The notes under the pieces: model-generated | Told to the model about the DNA's origin: nothing | Seen by the model: only the letters and a program-made list of their open reading frames with translations | The model's database searches: none | Assembly (NCBI GenBank): GCA_009914755.4 | Contig: CP086569.2 | Location: 16,064,001 to 16,128,000, forward strand | Length of the DNA: 64,000 bases | Direction: 5' to 3' | DNA from: the human T2T-CHM13v2.0 reference genome, Homo sapiens | Shown: positions 12,313 through 56,446 of the stretch, piece by piece | Layout: each line of letters begins with the position of its first letter | Position numbering within the stretch: the stretch's first letter is position 1 | Translations under genes and position numbers: made by a program

Positions 12313-12597
12313 AAGATAGATTCAATAGATAGATAGATAGATAGATAGATGAGATAGGTGGATAGATTGATAGAATAGATAGATTAGATAGATGAGTTAG
12401 AGAGAGAGAGAGATTACACAGATTAGACAGACAAATGAGATGGACAGAGAGATATGTAGGTAGATAGATGCATAGATAGATATAGATACATAGGTGGATA
12501 ATAGATGGAAATATACATGATAGATAGATAGAAAATAGATAGAAATATACATGACAGGTGGATGCATAAATGGTAGACATAGTAGAGATAGATATAT

Positions 12598-12648
<51 letters not shown>

Positions 12649-12812
12649 GATAGATGATAGATAGATAGATAGATAGATAGATATAACAGATGAATGGATT
12701 AATAAATAAAGAGCATAGATGGATGCATAAATATGCAGACAGATGCCAGATAGGTAGATGATAGATATGATTGTTAGATATGATGGATGAATGTATAGAT
12801 AGATATGATGGA
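12313..12812 (+). repeat. About 500 bp of complex, degenerate (GATA)n array. A pure run lies at about 12596-12700.
   Basis: Reads atagatagatagatag...gagatagg...gatagatagatagatagatagatag... Confidence 0.95.
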
Positions 12813-15196: not shown

Positions 15197-15495
15197 TTTT
15201 TTTTTTTTTTTTTTTTTGAGATGGAGTCTCGCTGTGCTGCCCAGGCTGGAGTGCAGTGGCGCGATCTTGGCTCACTTCAAGCTCCGCCTTCCGTGTTCAC
15301 ACCATTCTCCTGCCTCAGCCTACCCAGTAGGTGGGAACACAGGCGCCCACCACCACACCCGGCTAATTTTTCGTATTTTTAGTAGAGACGGGGTTTCACG
15401 GCGTTAGCCAGGATGGTCTCGATTTACTGACGTGATCCGCCCCCCTCGGCCTCCCAAAGTGCTGGAATTACAGGCATGAGCCACCGCGCCCGGCC
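15197..15495 (-). mobile_element. AluY-type element, full length, with CpGs largely intact.
   Basis: A poly-T run precedes gagatggagtctcgctgtgctgcccaggctggagtgcagtggcgcgatc. The AluY-diagnostic gtttcacggcgttagccaggatggtctcgat is present. It ends gccaccgcgcccggcc. The flanks cttgtgttc and cttatgttc look like a TSD. Confidence 0.92.
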
Positions 15496-19560: not shown

Positions 19561-19885
19561 TAGCCTAAACATTCCTTCTTTTCTTTCCTTCATTTCTCAC
19601 TCGTACTTTGTCTTTCTGTCTCTATTTTCTTGCTTCCCTCCTTTCATTTGTTATTCCTACCTTTTTCTTTTTTCATTTCTTTTTTCTTTCTTCCTCCCTC
19701 TCTCCCTTTCTTCTCTTCTTTTTCTCTTTCATTCTCCTTCCTGCCTCCCTCTCTCCTTTCACCTTTGATTTTTCCTTTCTTTCTTGTTTCTTTCTTTATT
19801 CTTTCTTCCTTCTCCCCTCTTTCCTTCCTTTCTTTATTTTCTTCTTTTCTTCTTTCATTTTTTTAAATCTTTCCTTCCTCCCCGC
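19561..19885. repeat. CT-rich (polypyrimidine on +) low-complexity block. It is the only purine/pyrimidine array in the window whose purine strand is the minus strand.
   Basis: Reads ttccttcttttctttccttcatttctcactcgtactttgtctttctgtctctattttcttgcttccctcc... Confidence 0.9.
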
Positions 19886-21090
19886 TACCCCCATAGAATA
19901 GTGATCTACAACTTTAAGGATAACTTCTTATCCACATTTCCAGTTGCTAAGGAATAGCTATTTTTTGTCTCTTCTATCCATTCAAAAGAACTCCAGTTGT
20001 TTATGTAACTTATATTTCTGGCTTATATTGTAAATAAATAAACAATAAACTATTCTTAGCTGCTTCTCTATTCAGCAAATTAGGTAGCGGCTGAGCAGGT
20101 GGTCCTCCCCTGTCTTCCATTTGTGGAATCCCTCACAACAACATTAGGTCAAGGATACAAAGGAAGATGCCAGACACAAGATAAATGAAGGCTTACATTC
20201 TGGAGCAGACCACACTGCATCTAGATGTCAAATTGAGAGGGTCTATTGCATCATAGGTTCTAATTGATGGCATGTTGTTGCAGGAAGTAGGCTAGTCCTG
20301 TATCTCTGCAGGAAGGAGACTACTCCAATATCCCAAGAGGATGAAAATGTAAGTATCAGAGTGTGTATACACTAAACACATCCTAGTGTGAAGGCTAACT
20401 TGGGTTGAGCTCACCCAAACCTTCTGTTATGCCCTCACTCATCCTGGGCAATATACTTTTAGATACTGGAAGCAGATCCTGTGACTAGCCTGAATTTCAG
20501 GAGCATATTCCTTCATAAATAGCATTGCCTGCTCTGTTTCCTTTAGGAAGCAAAAGTACAGGCTTTTTTTGTTTATAAGATTGTCAGTGGTACCCACTGG
20601 TCAAAAATAGTTGATACTGCCAGCAGAGATGTGCCAATGGCCACAGCTACAACCAGGTATAACCAAATGTAGACCACAGAATAGTTGCTACAAGTGTAAA
20701 TGCAGTATTTACTGTGTTTAGCAGGGCTTCTTCATGTCTACCTCTAGTAGCGACCCTGTGAAGAAGGGTTGTGGGTAGTAAAAGGTAATTCATTCTTAGC
20801 ACCATCTGCAGAGTTATCTTGTCTACTTGTGTCTTGCAAAATCCTCTACATCCCCTTGCAAGAGTCACTATTTTGTTTGAAACTCTTCAGAAAGACACTG
20901 AGTTCTTTAACCCTCATTTGCTCTGGGATATCCTCTCACAGGGTTCAGACAATAGTATCTCAAAATATGATACTTTGTGCATGCTAAACTGAAAAAGGAG
21001 CCTTATGTTCTCTCTCACCTCCCACCCATATCCCACCAGCTCCTCCAAAGCACAGGATGAAGTTGTTCTCTGAAGTCCCCTTATTTGCCT

Positions 21091-22321: not shown

Positions 22322-22900
22322 CTGATTGCTGACATCAGTTGAAGGGCAGAAGTAAAATCATAAAATTATTCAGGAAAGAGGGATTCCAGTTTCAGGAGTT
22401 AGCTTCCTCTGGCTTATTGAAATCATTGTTTCTAATTTTTTTTTTTTTTCTGACAAGCCCCTATAGAGCCTGTTTTCATTACCAGAGGAAGTTGTTCAAA
22501 TTCTCTGTCTTTTCATGGATCTTGTCACCTCCACTAATGCATGCTTTTATGCCTTCCTTCAAGCAGCTTTAAAGATTTTGATGTATTAAGTGTGGCTGTG
22601 CCCCTATGTGTATTGATTGCTGTCAGTTGAAAGGCAGAAGTGAAATCATGGAATTCTTTGGAAAAGAGGGATTCCAGTATTGGGAGTTAGCTTCCTCCAG
22701 CTTCTTGAAATCATTGTGTTTCTAGACGTTTTTCTAACGAGCCCCCAAATAGCCTCTTTTGATTACCAGAGGAAATTGTTCAGGTTCTCTGTCTTTCCAT
22801 TGGTCTTGTGACCTCCACCAATTCATGCTTTGATGCCTTCCTTCATGCAAGTTTAAAGATTTTGACAGAGCAAGTATGGTTGTGTTCCTACATGTAGAAG
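22322..22900 (+). repeat. Tandem duplication of 2 x ~290 bp. B1 spans 22322-22613 and B2 spans 22614-22900, roughly 85% identical.
   Basis: Both units read ...ttgattgctg(a/t)cagttgaa(g/a)ggcagaagt(a/g)aaatcat..gagggattccagt(t/a)t..ggagttagcttcctc..cttgaaatcattgt...attaccagaggaa(g/a)ttgttcaa..tctctgtctttcat... Confidence 0.88.
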
Positions 22901-38457: not shown

Positions 38458-38700
38458 GGAGATATATAGATATATATATAGATATAGATGTAGATATATA
38501 GATATATATATAGATATAGATGTAGATATAGATATATATATAGATATAGATGTAGATATAGATATATATAGATATAGATGTAGATATAGATATATACACA
38601 CAGGTGTGTATATTTTATAAGGACATATATCCTTATATATAAAAATATATACATATAAAAATATATAGAATATATATACAAGCATATATTTTTATAAAAA
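38458..38700. repeat. Minisatellite of about four 36-bp units (ATATAGATATAGATGTAGATATAGATATATAT-like), followed by a (TATA)-rich tract.
   Basis: Reads ggagatatatagatatatatatagatatagatgtagatatatagatatatatatagatatagatgtagatatagatatatatatagatatagatgtagatatagatatatatagatatagatgtagatatagatatatacacac. Confidence 0.9.
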
Positions 38701-40207
38701 TGTTTTTTTACCAAAAAGTAGTTCATACTGATCATGTTTTAATTTTTTAAACCAATATCCCTTACCCATATAATTTTTTCATTTAATGACAGATCATGAT
38801 CATTTTTTCATCCCAGTAAATACTTGTATATTGTTTTGTAGACCCAATGGCATTCCAATGTGTGGCTATGCATTTATTATTTAATCATCCATGCTTTGGA
38901 TACTTCTTAGCTTTGCTAAATGGCCTTAATATAATAAAATTGTCCACTTGACCTCAACCCCAAAATGGTGTCAAGTAACAGTAACAATTTTCTCCCTGAT
39001 AGAGAAAAAGATGCATAGAGGAAATGCAACATTTATTAGTTAGACTAAGCTCAGATACTGTCAAGTCATGGCTAATGATACATGCCTGTATATTGCCTTA
39101 CTCATGGAACATATTCAGTAAATGATGTCTTAATCAATGAAACTATGTAATTGCAGATAACTAGAGTTTTTAAAGAGGCTAAACAGGCAAAGATTTGTAA
39201 GAGGCTGAATAAACAGCTCATAATATGAGTTATGCATCAGTTGAGACAGACAGAGGACTCAGTATGAAGGAGTTCAAAATGCTGGTATTATTCCTGGTGA
39301 ATCAAATACTGGAGGTCATGATTAGGTATGTAGCAGCACTGGGGTTCTCATGATAGTGACCAAGAGGTTGGTAGGCTTACCCTCAAAGCTGCAAGAAGCA
39401 TTGAGCCACCCATTGCCCTATCTTTCATGGCAAACATCACATCTGAAATGGGGTGTGGGACAACTGGGTTGAGCTTCCCAAGGCAGGGAACCAGGTGAGA
39501 GGTTGCGGGACAGGGACTAGTGAAATAGTTCCCAGTAGAAACACAAGGCATGTCACAGAAGGGCTCCTACGAAACTAGATTATGTTTTTGATTCTCTCTA
39601 ATATCTATTAATCATCAAAATAAAGGACAGGCTTAGAGGTTCTTTCAAAACAATAAATACATACTTGTGAGCCTAAATGATTATGTTAGCTAAAAAAAAA
39701 AAGTATATATGTAAGTGTCTCCAATTTGTTTCCATAGCTGTCTTCACCTTTTCTGGGAAAATACCCTTATTTCAGGGGGAAGCATTATATATAAGCTGGT
39801 GGAATGGCTCATGGCTGAACTTACCTAGAATGCTAAATCATCATCTTAAATGCAAAGATAATATGTCAGCAGAATTCATATCTGGGCTGATTATTTACTT
39901 AAATGCTGAAAAAAAGTAAAATAAACTGCTTGAAGAAAAAATATTCATGGTAGACAGAAATGTGCAGAGGCTGGAACTGACAGCTGCAATAAATGGCTTG
40001 GTGGGCCCTGATAGTAAATGCAATTAGAATCCAACTCTCTAATTAGACATTCTGAAAATAACAAATATGCCTGTTGAGAGGAAAGTCCAGAAGTAGATAA
40101 ACTGAGATGTGAACCATGCGCTGATGGGATTACACATGACCTTTTTTCCTTCTTTACCAAGTCCCCAATTTCTAAAATTTGCTTTTCCTTTAAATACATT
40201 TCTATGG

Positions 40208-50244: not shown

Positions 50245-50766
<522 letters not shown>

Positions 50767-51403: not shown

Positions 51404-51745
51404 AGAGGATATGTCTTAAGCTATGAGCTGAGTCTTACCAATATCTCAGTGTATTAAAAACGTGGAAAACCAACTAAAATAATGGGATACCTGTTGTCAC
51501 TCATCACATTGGCAAAGACTAACACATTTAAAATACCCTTGAAAATATTGCCCTTCATTGTTCTTGTTCAACATTCAAAATGCATATGCCCTTTGAAATA
51601 GTAATGTCATTTTCATAGTATAACCTGCAAAACAAGCTACAGCTTCACTAAACCAAATGTACAAAGAGTCCCGTACAATTATATTTCACAGTGTTTTTGT
51701 TTGTCTCTGGTAGGAGAAGCTGGAAACAAAGTTAATGTCCACCTA

Positions 51746-52058
51746 AAGAAAGGAAAGGAAAGGAAGGGGGAGCAGGGAGAGGAGGGGAGGGGAAGGGAGA
51801 AGAAGAGAGGCTAGAGGAGGGGAGGGAAAAGAGGAAGGGAGGGTAGGGAAGGGGATGGGGATGGGGAGGGGGAGTAGGAGGAAAGGAAAGACTAAAGCAC
51901 CAGGTATTTTATACTGAGTTCCTGTACATTTGGGACAGGAGGGGAGGGGAGCGGAAGGAAGGGGAGGGGAGGGGAAGGAAGAGGAGGGGAGGGAAGGAGG
52001 GGAGGAGGGGACGGAAACACTAAACCCCTGATAGTTCATACTAAGTTCCTATATATTT
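51746..52058 (+). repeat. GA-rich (GGAA/GGGA/GGAG) homopurine block built as two tandem sub-blocks, each ending in a similar ~45-bp non-GA tail.
   Basis: Block 1 spans 51746-51890 and is followed by gactaaagcaccaggtattttatactgagttcctgtacatttggg. Block 2 spans 51936-52008 and is followed by acactaaacccctgatagttcatactaagttcctatatatttcag. Confidence 0.9.
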
Positions 52059-52726
52059 CAGTGTGATGATAATTTAAAATGACAATAGATATTCTTAAGT
52101 AAAGAAGTTACAAAACAACAAATGTAAACAGGTCCCATTTGTGCTCCATCATATTTCACATATAAATACTTATATGTAAAACCAAGAATATTTATGAAGA
52201 GATGCACAACTTATTGTTAAAAATTATTTCTGGAGAGAAGGATGGGAACAGTTGGATCCACTTATATTCTTTTATTTAAAAATCTCTTTCTCAAAAGTTC
52301 AGTTTCTGATAGTAATTTTAGTAGAAAATTGTATAAGGCTATTCCAGGCATATCTCCGTCCCAGTGTTTTGCTTCACTAGATCAAAGGCACCTTTCAGAA
52401 GGCTGTCAGCTTAAACACCACTATTCCAGGCTCTCAAAGATAGATTTGCCTTCTGTACTTTGCATTTTCATGTCCTGGGGTTGGCTCACTGAGGAGGCTT
52501 CATGAATGTGTAGTTTTAGGACTATTTTCCTTTATCAACCACAGGAAAGCCACTGTTTTCCCTGATAAACTTGTGTGGGCTTATATGTGCGTACTCTCAT
52601 ACAGACGCACAAACACACACACATTCTTTTAAAATGTAAAATCTTACCAAAAGCTTTTGAAAAAAAATCTCCTTAATTTATATTTTCTTTTTAGCATAAA
52701 AAATTAGAGACCCACATTAGGTAAGT

Positions 52727-55403
52727 GAAAGAAAGAGAGAGAATGAGAGAGGGAGGAAGAAAGGAAGGAGAGAGGAAAGGACAGAGGGAGGGAGGGATGG
52801 AGGGAGGAAGGAAGGAGGGAAGGAAATGAAGGGAAGGAGGGAACAAGGAAGGGAGGGAAGGAGAACGGGAAGAAGGGAAGGGAGAAAAGGGAGGGAGGAC
52901 AGGAACAAGGAGGACAGGAAGGGAGAAAGGGAAGAAAGGAGGAAGAGATGAAGGGAAGAAGAAAGAAAAGGAGGAAATGAGGGAGGGAGGAAGAAAGGCA
53001 GAGAGTGAGGAAGGGAAGAAAAAGGAAGAAAAGAAGGGAGGAAGGGAGGAAGGAAGAAAGGGAGGAGGGGAGAGAGGAAGGGAGAGAGGGAGGTAGGGAA
53101 ATGGAAAGAAGGTGCAAAAGAGGGAGGGAGGGAGGGAAATGAAAAGATGCAAGAGAGGGAGAGAGGCAAGGAAATGAAAACAAGGTGCAAGAGACATAGG
53201 GAAGAAGCGAGGGAAGGAAATGAAAAGAAGGTACAAGAGAGAGGGAGGGAAGGAAGGAGAATAAATAGTGTGCAAGGGAGAGAGGAAGGAAGGAAAGAAG
53301 GAATGAAGGAAGGAAAGAAGGAAAGAAGGAAGAAAGCAAATCAGGCAGGGAGGGAGGCAGGGAGGAAGGGGAAAGAAGTTGGAAGAGAGAGAGGGGGAGG
53401 GAGGGAAATGAAAACAAGGTGTAAGAGAGAGGGAGGGAGGGAAATGAAAAGAAGGTGCAAGAGAGAGAGGGAGGGAAATGGAAAGCAGGTGCAAGAGAGA
53501 GAGAGAGAGAAAGGGAGGGAGAAGAAATATTGTGCAAGGGAGAGAGAAATGAAGGAAGGGAGGAAGGAAAGAAGGAAGGAAGGAGGGAGGGAAGGAAACA
53601 AGGAAGGGAGGGAGGGAAAAAGAAGGTTCAAGAAAGAGAAAGGGAAGGAAGGAGAAGAAAAAATGTGCAAGGGAGAGAAGAAGGAAGGAAGAGGGAAAGA
53701 AGGAAGGGAGAGAGGGAGGGACGGGGGAGGGAGGGGAGAAGATGGTGTGAGAGAGAGAGAGGGAGAGAGGAAAATGAAAAGAAGATGCAAGACAGAGAGA
53801 GAAGGAGGGAAGGAAATGAAAAGAAGGTGCAAGAGAGAGAGGGAGAGAGGGAGGAAAGGAGAGAGGGAGGGAAATGAAAATAACGTCCAAGAGAGACAAG
53901 GAGCAAGAGAAGGAGAAGAAATAATGTGCAAGGAGCGAAGGAAGGAAGGAAGGAAGGAAGGAAGGAAGGAAGGAAGGAAGGAAGGAAGGAAGGAAAGAGG
54001 GAGGGATGGAGGGAGGGGAAAAGAAGGTGCTAGAGAGAGAGAGAGGGAGGGAGGGAAATGAAGAGAAGGTGCGAGAGAGAGGGAAGGAGGGAAATGAAAA
54101 GAAAGTGCAAGAGAGAGAGAGGGAGGGAGGGAAATTAAAAGAAGGTGAGAGAGAGGGAGGGAGGAAAATGAAAAGAAGGTGCAAGAGGGAGAGGGAGGGA
54201 GGGAAATGAAAATAAGGTGTGAGAGAGAGGGAGGGAGAGAAGGAGAAGAAATAATATGCAAGGGAGAGGGGAAGGAAGGAAGGAGGGAAGGAAGGAAGGA
54301 AAGAAGGAAGGAAGGAAAGAAGGAAGGAAGAAGGAAGGAAGGGAAGAGGGAGGGAGGGAGGGAAGGAAGGAAGAAGGAAAGAAGGAAGGGAGGAGGGAGG
54401 GAGGGAGGGAAGGAAGGAAGGAATGGAGGGAGGGAGGGAGGAAAGAAGAAGGAAGGTAGGAAGGAAAGGAAGGAAGGAAGGGAAGGAGGGAGGGATGGAG
54501 GGAGGGGAAAAGAAGGTGTGTGTGTGAGAGAGAGAGAGAAAGAGGGAGGGAAATGAAAAGAAGGTGAGAGAGAGAGGGAGGGAGGAAAATGAAAAAAAGA
54601 TGCAAGAGACAGAGGGACGGAGGGAGAGAAAACAAAAGAAAGTGTAAGAGAGAAAGGGATAGAGAGAAGGAGAAGAAATAATGTGCAAGGGAGAGAGGAA
54701 GGCAGGAAAGAAGGAAGGAAGGATGGAAAGAAGGGAGGGAGGGAGGAAGGAAAGAAGGAAGGAAGGAAGGAAGGTAGGAAGGAAGGAAGGAAGGGAAGGA
54801 GGAAGGGATGGAGGGAGGGGAGAAGAAGGTGTGTGAGAGAGAGAGGGAGGGAGGAAAATGAAAAAAAGTTGCAAGAGAGAGAGGGAGGGAGGGAAAAGAA
54901 AAGAAAGTGTAAGAGAGAAAGGGAGAGAGAGAAGGAGAAGAAATAATGTGCAAGGGAGAGAGGAAGGAAGGAAGCAAGGAAGGGAGGGAGGGAGGGGGAA
55001 AGAGAGTTCAAAAGAGAGAGAGGGAGAGAGGGAAATGAAAAGAAGGTGAAAGAAAGAGAGGGAGGGAGGGAGGGATGAAAATGAAAATGAAAATAATGTG
55101 CAAGAGAGAGAGGAAGGAATGGAGGAAGGAAGGAAGGGAGGAAGGAAGGAAGATGGAAGGAAGGAAGGAAGAGACAGAGGGAAAAACAAAGGTGCAAGAG
55201 AGAGATGGAGGGAGGGAGAAGGAATAATATGCAAGGGAGAGAGGAAAGAAGAAAGAAAGGAAGGAAGGAAGGAAGGAGGGAAGAGAGGAAGGGAGGGAGG
55301 GAGGGAAAAAATGAACAGAAGGTGCAAGGGAGATGAAAGAAGGAAGGAAGGGAAAAGAAAGGGAGGAATGAAGAAAAAGAAAAGGAGAGGAGAGGAATAA
55401 GTG
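52727..55403 (+). repeat. A 2.68-kb homopurine (GA-rich) macro-array. It combines (GGAA)n, GGGAGGGA runs, a recurring ~38-bp core GGGAAATGAAAAGAAGGTGCAAGAGAGAG and a recurring marker GAAGAAATAATGTGCAAGGGAGAGAGGAAGG, giving a higher-order period of about 270-430 bp.
   Basis: The + strand is almost pure A/G. The core recurs at about 53098, 53137, 53170, 53218, 53405, 53441, 53476, 53767, 53812, 53870, 54055, 54092, 54132, 54166, 54203, 54552, 54587, 54630, 54855, 54895, 55033 and 55310. The marker recurs at about 53520, 53918, 54246, 54672, 54938 and 55221. Confidence 0.95.
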
Positions 55404-56446
55404 AAAGAGTAACTTGGAAATAATATGTTTGAGTCTATAACTGAATAAATGAATTAATAAAGTTTTATGTTTTTTCATAGCTCTGATACATTTCTTCCAC
55501 TTCATTTTCATATATTTTTGTAAAACCATTTTTATAAAATCTGAGTACAATTTTTCTTTTCTGCACTGTAGGTTGATTTTAAACATTCAATGTGGTCCAC
55601 AGCCAAGAAATATAGCTAATGTCAGCTGTCCATGTGAGCCATAAATAAATATTTCAAAGGAACAATGGTACATTCAGGAATGTATATCAAATTGCGTGCC
55701 CAAAAGTGGCATGTGGAGCCAACACCACGTAAAAGACTGCAGGGTGATGAGGAGCATCGATTGAGCCATTGCACTTTTGCTGACTCCAGCCTTTGCATGG
55801 AGCTCCTCCGCTTACATATGGAGCCTTGACTTCTACAGGAAAAGAGACAGGAATGCTGCGTATAGTGGGGGTGGACACCATGTGACAGGATTAAGTAGGG
55901 TTTTTAAGGATGGCATGGGGAAAAGGTGCAAGACTTGAGGCAGAGGAGGGAGCCAGCCAGGCTGCTTGGAAGAGGCGTGCTTCTGTCCCGGTGAAGACCA
56001 GACTAGAGCAGCCAGTCCGGGGGGCTCCGACTCCCTCCAGGAATGGGGAGGAGGATCTAGGGACATCAGCAGGAAGAAATAAAGTCACAGAGGTGAAGTA
56101 GAGGTGGAGGAGGCCTGATGGGACAGCACCTCAGAACTTCCTGGGGAGTCTGGCCTTGACTCTAGAGTAATGGTAGCCACTGCAGTGATTTGAGCTGAGG
56201 GGCTAAGATCACCAGATGACCTAGAGTCCGTGGTCAAAGGCTCCCTTCAGCTGTGTGCTGAGGATATTTGGTTTGGGGAGGCAACTGCAGGAATCCAGAG
56301 AGAGATGGTCCATTGCAACACAGACCAGAAGTGTAAATGAGAAGTTGGGCTGCAGATCTAATTTGAACACAGTGAGATTTAGAAAGTTGAGAAATTGGAC
56401 CAAATTTGTGATGGGAATTGGGTTCCACAGTTTAAATTCAGATCTT

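What the first reader, a model, noticed from the sequence alone, without database searches (positions are those of the whole stretch)
52727..55403. The 2.7-kb homopurine macro-array is a structured higher-order satellite, not a simple (GGAA)n
The array has structure beyond its GA-rich composition, by eye. A ~38-bp core (GGGAAATGAAAAGAAGGTGCAAGAGAGAGGGAGGGA) recurs more than 20 times in clusters of 3-5. Each cluster is followed by a conserved marker, GAAGAAATAATGTGCAAGGGAGAGAGGAAGG, seen six times at 53520, 53918, 54246, 54672, 54938 and 55221. Each marker is followed by a pure (GGAA)n run such as 53941-53995. The result is a repeat unit of roughly 270-430 bp. That pattern suggests growth by unequal exchange of whole higher-order units. 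The + strand is about 98% purine over 2.7 kb. Such a tract is expected to form H-DNA or triplexes and R-loops, to stall replication, and to vary strongly in length between haplotypes. Arrays of this kind are usually masked as 'simple/low complexity' and not examined for internal organisation.
Basis: seen in the sequence. Interest (0 to 1): 0.55.

Follow-up and report, generated by a model that had tools for sequence, protein, structure and literature searches.

The report
Nested GA-rich tandem repeat array
The 2.7-kb purine-rich tract really is built from ~40-bp repeats, a recurring end marker and short GGAA-type runs grouped into larger variable-length units, but this is a known kind of non-coding "nested tandem repeat" in primate DNA with no sign of function.

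Summary
The array at 52727-55403 is real and its internal order is far beyond chance. Self-alignments at lags over 100 bp reach 220 bits, against at most 88 bits in composition-matched simulations. About 29 copies of a ~40-bp core and 9 copies of a 31-bp marker are arranged in ten units. Each unit runs [GGAA/GGGA run]-[head core variant]-[cores x n]-[marker].

- Purine content is 93%, not 98%.
- There are 9 markers, not 6.
- Marker-to-marker spacing is 127-427 bp, not 270-430 bp.
- Only one marker is followed by a long pure (GGAA)n run (14 units). The other eight are followed by degenerate runs of at most 4 pure units.

The architecture fits the published definition of a nested (variable-length) tandem repeat. 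It does not meet the criteria of a homogenised higher-order satellite. The two central units U5 and U6 are 92-93% identical across position-specific variants, which shows a recent whole-unit duplication. Peripheral units are eroded.

H-DNA and G4 potential is local, not array-wide: 24 mirror motifs, only one with arms of 25 nt or more, and 13 G4 motifs. Length variation between haplotypes, the identity of the locus and copies elsewhere in the genome could not be tested here.

Verdict: an ordinary, probably neutral complex tandem repeat, a new member of a known kind.

The parts
52722..52732 (+). Left copy of the 11-mer TAAGTGAAAGA, at the array edge
   Evidence: this 11-mer occurs only twice in the 64-kb window, once at each edge of the array.
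52727..53095 (+). Degenerate GA-rich left part (96% purine) with no recognisable core or marker. It holds vestigial GGAAATGA and GGGATGGAGGGAGG fragments, so it is probably made of eroded old units.
53096..53289 (+). Unit U0: four cores plus the marker at 53259-53289
53290..53551 (+). Unit U1 (262 bp): degenerate GGAA run, head variant, three cores, marker at 53521-53551
53552..53684 (+).
53685..53945 (+). Unit U3 (261 bp): run, head, three cores plus a boxless partial core, marker at 53915-53945
53946..54275 (+). Unit U4 (330 bp): run, head (53996-54050), five cores, marker at 54245-54275. Its leading run is the only long pure one, (GGAA)14 at 53940-53995, which begins inside the preceding U3 marker.
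53940..53995 (+). Pure (GGAA)14. It is the only perfect mirror repeat with arms >=25 nt (28-29 nt), so it is the strongest H-DNA candidate and the strongest EWS/FLI-type GGAA run.
54276..54702 (+). Unit U5 (427 bp): 230-bp GGAA/GGGA run, head with (TG)4 (54485-54545), two cores, penultimate variant P (54620-54671), marker at 54672-54702
54260..54423 (+). Longest uninterrupted purine run (164 bp)
54703..54967 (+). Unit U6 (265 bp): run, head with (TG)2 (54799-54850), one core, penultimate variant P (54886-54936), marker at 54937-54967. It is the closest relative of U5.
   Evidence: 54564-54722 against 54833-54987, 92% over 159 bp; identity 0.93.
54968..55117 (+).
55118..55248 (+). Unit U8 (131 bp): run, one degenerate core, marker at 55218-55248
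55249..55403 (+). Terminal unit U9: run, one core/marker hybrid (GTGCAAGGGAGA at 55322), decaying GA-rich tail
55398..55408 (+). Right copy of the 11-mer TAAGTGAAAGA, at the array edge

Best explanation
This is a locus-specific, non-coding nested (variable-length) tandem repeat in AT-rich, CpG-depleted primate DNA. It most likely grew out of a GA-rich simple repeat and has at least three tiers of duplication.

1. 4-bp GGAA/GGGA/GAGA slippage.
2. A ~40-bp minisatellite core, GGGAGGGAAATGAAAAGAAGGTGCAAGAGAGAGAGGGAGGGA. It is GA-rich sequence that fixed a few T/C substitutions and then became the unit of amplification.
3. Duplication of whole composite units of about 130-430 bp, each built as [run]-[head variant]-[cores x n]-[optional penultimate variant]-[marker, itself a diverged core].

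After each whole-unit duplication, core number and GGAA-run length kept changing inside the units, which explains why unit lengths differ. The centre of the array (U4-U6) is the most recently duplicated or homogenised part, and the edges are decaying.

Shown here: the hierarchy, the position-specific variants and the U5/U6 duplication.

Inferred: origin from a simple repeat, the molecular mechanism of duplication (unequal sister-chromatid or meiotic exchange against replication slippage or template switching), and neutrality.

The tract carries local non-B DNA potential. It has one strong H-DNA motif, about two dozen short ones and 13 G4 motifs, all with purines or G on the + strand. These may raise its own instability, but nothing indicates a cellular function.
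For: - Array, composition and edges.
- TRF reports periods 4, 36-42 and 76-78, plus 150 and 177.
- Long-lag self-similarity is far above Markov nulls.
- Core and marker counts are far above nulls.
- Element parse and unit layout.
- Position-specific head variant (Fisher p = 6e-5) and median 40-bp box spacing.
- The marker shares the GTGCAAG box with the core and is weakly hit by the core HMM.
- U5/U6 identity is 92-93%, with the centre more similar than the periphery.
- 19-copy core alignment, 82% mean column identity.
- Context is ordinary primate DNA. There are Alus, an Alu-tail (GAAA)n, many tetranucleotide arrays, CpG o/e 0.146 and no Rfam hit.
- ORFs across the array are low-complexity artefacts.
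- Literature: the definition of nested tandem repeats, with human examples. DYZ1 as a nested repeat derived from a pentamer, and the definition of composite repeats. Long mirror repeats and H-motifs arise from STR expansion.
Against: - Only one haplotype of one genome is available, so neither polymorphism nor the mode of growth was observed directly.
- The 11-bp direct repeat at both edges could mean the tract began as an insertion rather than by in-situ expansion.
- Unit lengths cluster oddly (261, 262 and 265 bp; 131 and 133 bp) although their internal composition differs. Simple neutral drift does not predict this.
- Function (binding-site array, transcript) was not tested and cannot be excluded.
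- Whether the core occurs at other loci is unknown.
Confidence: 0.75

Rival explanations
1. The tract began as an inserted sequence, and the 11-bp direct repeat is its target-site duplication. The insert could have been the A-rich tail of a severely 5'-truncated retroelement or another mobile GA-rich segment. It later expanded into the present array.
For: TAAGTGAAAGA occurs exactly twice in 64 kb, at 52722 and 55398, abutting both ends of the array. Alu tails in the same window have expanded into (GAAA)n, at 50526-50766.
Against: There is no transposable-element body, no residual poly(A) before the right repeat and no TT|AAAA-type L1 endonuclease site at the left junction. A tandem array of n-plus-a-fraction copies also produces a terminal direct repeat without any insertion. 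In purine-rich edges a chance match is not negligible (rough p of about 0.01-0.02, my own estimate).
Confidence: 0.12
2. It is one array of a dispersed, named satellite or minisatellite family (for example an MSR1-like ~37-bp family, or a family newly annotated in T2T assemblies), not a locus-specific repeat.
For: The core period of about 40 bp is close to the 36-38 bp of MSR1. T2T work keeps adding previously unknown satellite arrays.
Against: No other copy of the core or marker lies in the remaining 61 kb. The only marker look-alike outside the array, at 39932, has 8 mismatches. MSR1 is concentrated on GC-rich chromosome 19q, whereas this window is 38% GC. No family consensus was available, so there was no direct comparison. 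Scans of the metagenome, prokaryote-genome and viral collections found nothing related.
Confidence: 0.08
3. It is a functional cis-element. It could be a tandem array of protein-binding sites (GGAA for ETS factors, the GGTGCAAG or AAATGAAAA boxes for an unknown factor), or a structure-forming (H-DNA/G4/R-loop) regulatory or boundary element maintained by selection.
For: The T/C landmark positions are invariant among 19 cores. There are 15 runs of >=3 consecutive GGAA, one of them 14 units long. That satisfies the sequence requirement for EWS/FLI binding in Ewing-sarcoma cells. G4 motif density is about 37 times that of the rest of the window.
Against: The invariance is partly ascertainment, because elements were anchored on those landmarks. 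Transversions are also rarer than A<->G changes. Units differ widely in length and the edges are decaying, as expected without constraint. EWS/FLI binding is a neomorphic cancer property, not a normal function. No promoter, CpG island or RNA family is present.
Confidence: 0.05
4. There is no real higher-order structure. The recurrences are what any GA-rich low-complexity tract would show.
For: Composition alone gives strong 4-, 8- and 12-bp periodicity. GA-rich queries align to any GA-rich tract. For example, the head element scores 38 against 51761.
Against: Markov order-1 to order-6 simulations never approach the observed self-alignment scores or the observed motif counts. Position-specific variants are significant.
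Confidence: 0.01

Closest known systems
Nested tandem repeat / variable-length tandem repeat (Matroud, Hendy & Tuffley 2012, NTRFinder; PMC3273788)
   Same: [quoted passage not shown] Copy number differs between recurrences: the number of cores before the nine successive markers is 4, 4, 1, 4, 6, 4, 3, 2 and 1. Human examples were reported in the pseudoautosomal region.
   Different: Here the interspersed marker is itself a diverged copy of the tandem core. There are also additional position-specific variants (head, penultimate), so the structure is richer than the two-motif formal definition.
[quoted passage not shown]
   Same: It is a kilobase-scale purine/pyrimidine strand asymmetry of similar length (2.7 kb) with a similar number of short H-DNA motifs, 24 non-nested by the arm >=10, spacer <8 definition.
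   Different: This tract is less pure (93%) and is interrupted about every 14 bp. Only one motif has arms >=25 nt. It has a regular repeat hierarchy that is not described for the PyRE. Its gene context is unknown, and no experimental evidence of triplex formation or fragility exists for it.
Higher-order repeat satellites (alpha-satellite HORs; DYZ1 as a ~3.6-kb nested repeat derived from the CATTC pentamer)
   Same: Sub-repeats occur in a conserved order within a larger repeating unit. The array derives from a simpler short repeat. The centre is more homogeneous than the edges.
   Different: Units are not homogenised (69-93% identity) and have no fixed monomer number. There are ten units in 2.7 kb, compared with hundreds of kilobases to megabases. 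It is not known to be multi-locus.
GGAA microsatellites used by EWS/FLI in Ewing sarcoma
   Same: It contains 179 GGAA motifs, 15 runs of >=3 consecutive units and one run of 14. By the published region definition it is a cluster of ordinary 13-20-motif GGAA regions.
   Different: The GGAA runs are only one component. They are separated by ~40-bp core blocks. No binding data are available, and distance to genes is unknown.
[quoted passage not shown]
   Same: The unit combines a minisatellite block, a marker and a simple repeat, and the units are arrayed in tandem (definition).
   Different: Published composite units are typically kilobases long and include transposable elements or genes. This unit is 130-430 bp and is made only of GA-rich repeats.

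Membership tests
Nested / variable-length tandem repeat (NTR) | [quoted passage not shown] | tested here: met
   Blocks of the ~40-bp core alternate with 4-bp GGAA/GGGA runs across ten units.
Nested / variable-length tandem repeat (NTR) | The interspersed motif X recurs more than once, with at least one tandem copy of x between recurrences and at least two copies somewhere | tested here: met
   There are 9 markers. The number of core-type elements before successive markers is 4, 4, 1, 4, 6, 4, 3, 2 and 1.
Nested / variable-length tandem repeat (NTR) | X and x are clearly different motifs (distance above a threshold) | tested here: inconclusive
   GGAA and the core are clearly distinct. The marker and the core share the GTGCAAG box, and the core HMM hits markers weakly (E 0.05-0.6).
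Higher-order repeat (HOR) satellite | Sub-repeats in a fixed order inside each higher-order unit | tested here: met
   The order run-head-core(n)-[P]-marker holds in all units. The head variant is position-specific (8/9 against 2/21, p = 6e-5).
Higher-order repeat (HOR) satellite | A constant number of monomers per unit, and units much more alike than the monomers within a unit | tested here: not met
   Core number varies from 1 to 6 and unit length from 131 to 427 bp. Unit-to-unit identity is 0.69-0.93, against 82% among cores.
Higher-order repeat (HOR) satellite | Long arrays, usually at several chromosomal sites | not testable with these tools
   There is a single 2.7-kb array in the window. 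No primate genome collection is available, and contaminant scans found nothing.
H-DNA-forming homopurine/homopyrimidine tract | >=90% purine on one strand, with mirror repeats of arm >=10 bp and spacer <8 bp | tested here: met
   The tract is 93.0% purine. It holds 24 non-nested motifs covering 476 of 2677 bp.
H-DNA-forming homopurine/homopyrimidine tract | Length and purity in the range where H-DNA forms in cells (arms of about 25 nt or more; S1-sensitive sites average about 202 bp with few interruptions) | tested here: inconclusive
   Only (GGAA)14 has arms of 28-29 nt, and the next largest are 16-18 nt. The longest pure purine run is 164 bp and the median is 8 nt.
H-DNA-forming homopurine/homopyrimidine tract | Demonstrated triplex formation (S1/P1 sensitivity, chemical probing) | not testable with these tools
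   This is experimental.
EWS/FLI-responsive GGAA microsatellite | At least 3 consecutive GGAA motifs on one strand | tested here: met
   There are 15 runs of >=3 units, 7 of >=4 and one of 14.
EWS/FLI-responsive GGAA microsatellite | Occupancy by EWS/FLI and an effect on a nearby gene | not testable with these tools
   No ChIP or expression data are available, and the locus is not identified.
MSR1 minisatellite family | 36-38-bp unit matching the MSR1 consensus, enriched on chromosome 19q | not testable with these tools
   The period is similar, at about 40 bp. The published consensus exists only as a figure, and the chromosome is unknown. The window's 38% GC argues against 19q.
Retroelement-derived insertion with target-site duplication | Flanking direct repeat of 7-20 bp | tested here: met
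   The 11-bp TAAGTGAAAGA lies at both edges and is unique to them in the window.
Retroelement-derived insertion with target-site duplication | A recognisable element body and a 3' poly(A) next to the downstream repeat | tested here: not met
   The whole interval is the GA-rich array, and the sequence before the right repeat is GGAGAGGAGAGGAA.

The most novel reading that the evidence does not exclude
The array may be a snapshot of a self-propagating process. Structure-prone GA-rich repeats (H-DNA at GGAA runs, G4 at the GGGA-rich heads) would stall replication at fixed points in each unit and so direct duplication of whole composite units. That would explain the conserved run-head-core-marker order and the clustering of unit lengths near 131-133 bp and 261-265 bp despite different internal composition. 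On this reading the locus would be a tractable model of how a microsatellite matures into a higher-order satellite.
Probability: 0.1. Interest if true: 0.5.

Novelty: new member of a known kind. Interest (0 to 1): 0.2.

Why it matters
The practical value is modest. Repeat maskers label such tracts 'simple/low complexity', yet this one has landmarks (head, core, penultimate variant, marker) that allow alleles to be decomposed symbolically. That would make it a usable multi-state marker, and a small natural example of hierarchical repeat growth.

It also corrects an over-reading. A 93%-pure tract that is interrupted about every 14 bp should not be assumed to behave like a 2.7-kb triplex-forming sequence. 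Only a few sub-segments reach the lengths at which H-DNA forms in cells, and G4 motifs are an equally plausible source of instability.

If the locus turns out to lie in or near a gene, the (GGAA)14 run and its neighbours would be candidate EWS/FLI neo-enhancer sites in Ewing sarcoma.

Tried and rejected
- A fuzzy-regex search over the whole window and a 90-simulation BLAST null timed out. I redid them with Hamming scans and fewer simulations.
- Plain lag autocorrelation shows the 4-bp and 36-40-bp periods but only weak peaks at long lags, because unit lengths vary. Self-BLAST was needed to see the higher tier.
- TRF with a maximum period of 500 reports periods of 150 and 177 but none at 260-430, for the same reason.
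- A further ~1.4-kb tier (U1-U2 echoed by U6-U7, which share a rare GTTCAA box) is inconclusive. U1's best partner is U6, but U2's best partner is U8.
- Identity against unit separation shows no significant trend (Spearman -0.22, p = 0.19).
- A possible unique-sequence progenitor of the head element at 55903-55950 scores lower (27) than generic GA-rich tracts elsewhere in the window (up to 38), so I rejected it as not significant.
- There is no PRDM9 13-mer in the array.
- Rfam found nothing in the window.
- Scans for the core, the marker or the right junction found nothing in the metagenome contigs or the viral contigs. The prokaryote genome scan gave one hit, L001, a chance 21-mer inside bacterial coding sequence.
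- The Bacolla et al. 2006 paper on long R.Y tracts is not held. It is known here only through its citation.
- The MSR1 consensus is not available as text.
- I did not use the protein tools, because the long ORFs across the array are low-complexity artefacts.
Full report
**1. What is there**

The interval 52727-55403 is a sharply bounded tract. Purine fraction in 30-bp windows rises from about 0.5 to over 0.9 within 40 bp at each end. Over the 2677 bp the + strand has 1255 G, 1234 A, 127 T and 61 C, which is 93.0% purine and not the about 98% stated.

The window is primate DNA. It holds a near-consensus Alu 5' end at 15460-15495 and another Alu with a (GAAA)n-expanded tail at about 50400-50766. 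GC content is 38.4% and CpG o/e is 0.146. It has many tetranucleotide arrays and no Rfam family.

**2. Is the internal order more than composition?**

Yes.

- The 31-nt marker has 2 exact copies, 7 at <=3 mismatches and 9 at <=6 mismatches.
- Markov order-1, order-3 and order-5 simulations of the array give means of 0.03, 0.2 and 2.4 for the core, and 0.01, 0.07 and 1.8 for the marker.
- Self-BLAST restricted to lags over 100 bp gives a best HSP of 220 bits and 21 HSPs of at least 100 bits. Order-3 and order-6 simulations peak at 51 and 88 bits and give no HSP of at least 100 bits.
- The best off-diagonals are 54564-54722 against 54833-54987 (92% over 159 bp, lag 269) and 54110-54377 against 54529-54806 (84% over 278 bp, lag 419).

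**3. Anatomy**

Profile-HMM parsing and a box-anchored layout give 39 elements carrying a GTGCAAG-like box. Nine are markers and 30 are core-type: 19 standard cores, 9 unit-leading head elements and 2 penultimate (P) variants. Median box-to-box spacing is 40 bp (range 34-58).

Nineteen standard cores align to the consensus GGGAGGGAAATGAAAAGAAGGTGCAAGAGAGAGAGGGAGGGA with 82% mean column identity.

The markers start at 53259, 53521, 53654, 53915, 54245, 54672, 54937, 55087 (a variant) and 55218. Taking each unit to end with its marker gives:

- U0: four cores plus a marker, preceded by 370 bp of structureless GA-rich sequence.
- U1-U8: 262, 133, 261, 330, 427, 265, 150 and 131 bp.
- U9: a decaying terminal unit.

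Each unit reads [GGAA/GGGA-type run]-[head element]-[cores x n]-[marker]. The marker shares the GTGCAAG box with the core, so it is best seen as a diverged core.

The head element is the first box element after each run. It lacks the AAATGAA signature in 8 of 9 units, whereas internal elements have it in 19 of 21 (Fisher p = 6e-5). In U4, U5 and U6 the head is GGGATGGAGGGAGGGGA(A/G)AAGAAGGTG followed by CT, (TG)4 or (TG)2.

U5 and U6 also share a distinct penultimate element, ...AAAAGAAAGTGTAAGAGAGAAAGGGA(T/G)AGAGAGAAGGA.

The 'pure (GGAA)n after each marker' claim holds once, for 14 units at 53940-53995. Elsewhere the longest pure stretch is 2-4 units inside a degenerate GGAA/GGGA/GAAA mix.

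**4. History that can be read from the sequence**

In marker-anchored 90-bp segments, U5 and U6 are 0.93 identical. U0, U3, U4, U5 and U6 are 0.81-0.86 to one another. U1, U2, U7 and U8 are 0.69-0.80 to the rest. Head-anchored segments give the same picture, with U4, U5 and U6 at 0.85-0.87.

So at least one whole-unit duplication (U5/U6, about 265-270 bp) is recent. The centre is more homogeneous than the periphery, and the left 370 bp looks like eroded units. From general knowledge of tandem arrays, this is the usual pattern for arrays turning over by unequal exchange or slippage, where array ends escape homogenisation.

After duplication, core number and run length changed within units. U5 carries a 230-bp run and U6 a 120-bp run.

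One haplotype cannot tell whether the duplications arose by meiotic unequal crossing-over, sister-chromatid exchange or replication template switching. The canonical PRDM9 13-mer is absent from the array. That gives no sequence support for a hotspot but does not exclude one.

A further ~1.4-kb tier is inconclusive.

**5. Non-B DNA potential**

I used the published operational definition: arms >=10 bp, spacer <8 bp, >=90% R or Y, and AT <80%, with a genome average of about one motif per 25 kb.

- The array has 24 non-nested H-DNA motifs covering 476 bp. The number is similar to the 23 perfect mirror repeats of the 2.5-kb PKD1 tract.
- The tract is interrupted often. The median pure-purine run is 8 nt and the longest is 164 bp (54260-54423). 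Only the (GGAA)14 run has arms of 28-29 nt, and the next largest arms are 16-18 nt.
- H-motif behaviour diverges from other mirror repeats at arms of about 25 nt. S1-sensitive sites in cells average about 202 bp and have few interruptions.

H-DNA is therefore plausible at one or two sub-segments, not across the 2.7 kb.

There are 13 canonical G3+N1-7 motifs on the + strand of the array, against 8 in the other 61 kb. Several sit in the GGGA-rich heads. GGGA microsatellite G4s are reported to inhibit replicative polymerases (abstract of PMC12038398, listed).

R-loop propensity would follow from the purine and G skew only if the + strand is the non-template strand of a transcript. Transcription is unknown here.

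**6. Function**

Nothing points to one. ORFs across the array (up to 878 aa of Ser/Leu/Pro/Phe on the - strand, and Glu/Arg/Gly/Lys on the + strand) exist only because stop codons need T or A.

The GGAA runs meet the sequence requirement for EWS/FLI binding. At least 3 consecutive units are needed, and 71.5% of regions with >=6 are bound in Ewing cells. By that paper's own region definition, the array is a cluster of ordinary 13-20-motif GGAA regions, and the activity is specific to the cancer fusion protein.

**7. Comparison with known kinds**

The architecture satisfies the published definition of a nested (variable-length) tandem repeat, which has human examples in the pseudoautosomal region. 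It also loosely fits the T2T notion of a composite repeat, and DYZ1 is a precedent for a nested repeat derived from a pentamer.

It fails two defining features of a homogenised HOR satellite: a constant monomer number, and units much more alike than their monomers. Its scale is that of a minisatellite/VNTR. It resembles the PKD1 polypyrimidine tract in size and motif count but is less pure.

Long H-motifs in the human genome are reported to originate from STR expansion. That agrees with the proposed origin.

**8. An unexplained detail**

TAAGTGAAAGA occurs exactly twice in the window, abutting the two ends of the array. It may be a target-site duplication, the trace of the primordial duplication, or chance. 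An orthologous empty site would decide between these.

**9. What could not be done**

No primate genome, pangenome or functional-genomics resource is reachable with these tools. Scans of the metagenome, prokaryote and viral collections for the core, marker and junction returned nothing relevant. Locus identity, copies elsewhere, haplotype variation and in-cell structure all remain open.

**10. Verdict**

The object is an ordinary, probably neutral member of a known class, a nested tandem repeat within a polypurine tract. Interest is low to modest.

Noticed in passing
window 52722-52732 and 55398-55408: The 11-mer TAAGTGAAAGA occurs only twice in the 64-kb window, directly abutting the left and right ends of the array. 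It may be a target-site duplication, a relic of the first duplication, or chance.
   Followed up: partly
window 53290-55248 (units U1-U8): Unit lengths cluster at 261, 262 and 265 bp and at 131 and 133 bp (about half), although the units reach those lengths with different mixes of run and cores. This is a post-hoc observation with a rough p of about 0.05.
   Followed up: no
window 52691-55327 (- strand) and 53147-54061 (+ strand): Very long spurious ORFs run across the array: 878 aa rich in Ser/Leu/Pro/Phe on the - strand, and 304 aa rich in Glu/Arg/Gly/Lys on the + strand. A naive gene caller could report them, but they are composition artefacts.
   Followed up: yes
window 55903-55950: A unique-looking sequence 500 bp downstream, AAGGATGGCATGGGGAAAAGGTGCAAGACTTGAGGCAGAGGAGGGAG, resembles the head element of the units. 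The alignment score (27) is below that of generic GA-rich tracts elsewhere, so it is not significant.
   Followed up: yes
window 51728-52058: Two G-rich purine tracts (GGGGAGGGGA type), each followed by a similar ~45-bp non-repeat segment, form a 127-bp two-copy tandem duplication (TRF 51816-52058, 77% matches) 700 bp upstream of the array on the same strand. It contains 3 G4 motifs.
   Followed up: no
window 50400-50766: An Alu 3' end whose tail has expanded into about 60 copies of (GAAA)n, with GGAA/GGGA variants at its distal end. It is an H-DNA-type motif cluster (arms up to 25 nt) and shows how GA-rich repeats arise locally.
   Followed up: partly
window 12314-12683, 35183-35627, 38462-38678: Unusually long, degenerate (AGAT)n/(ATAG)n arrays (about 92 and 110 units) and an (ATATAG)n array. 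The window is rich in expanded tetranucleotide repeats.
   Followed up: no
window 22335-22865: A two-copy tandem duplication of a 284-bp non-simple unit (81% matches, TRF score 743).
   Followed up: no
window 19572-19900: A 329-bp pyrimidine-rich tract (90% Y on the + strand) with a 51-bp period. It is the only sizeable tract in the window with the opposite strand polarity to the array.
   Followed up: no
L001 4967-4987: The only exact 21-mer core match in 596 Gb of prokaryote genomes lies in ordinary coding-like sequence of a Flavobacteriaceae MAG. About 0.3 such matches are expected by chance, so it is unrelated.
   Followed up: yes
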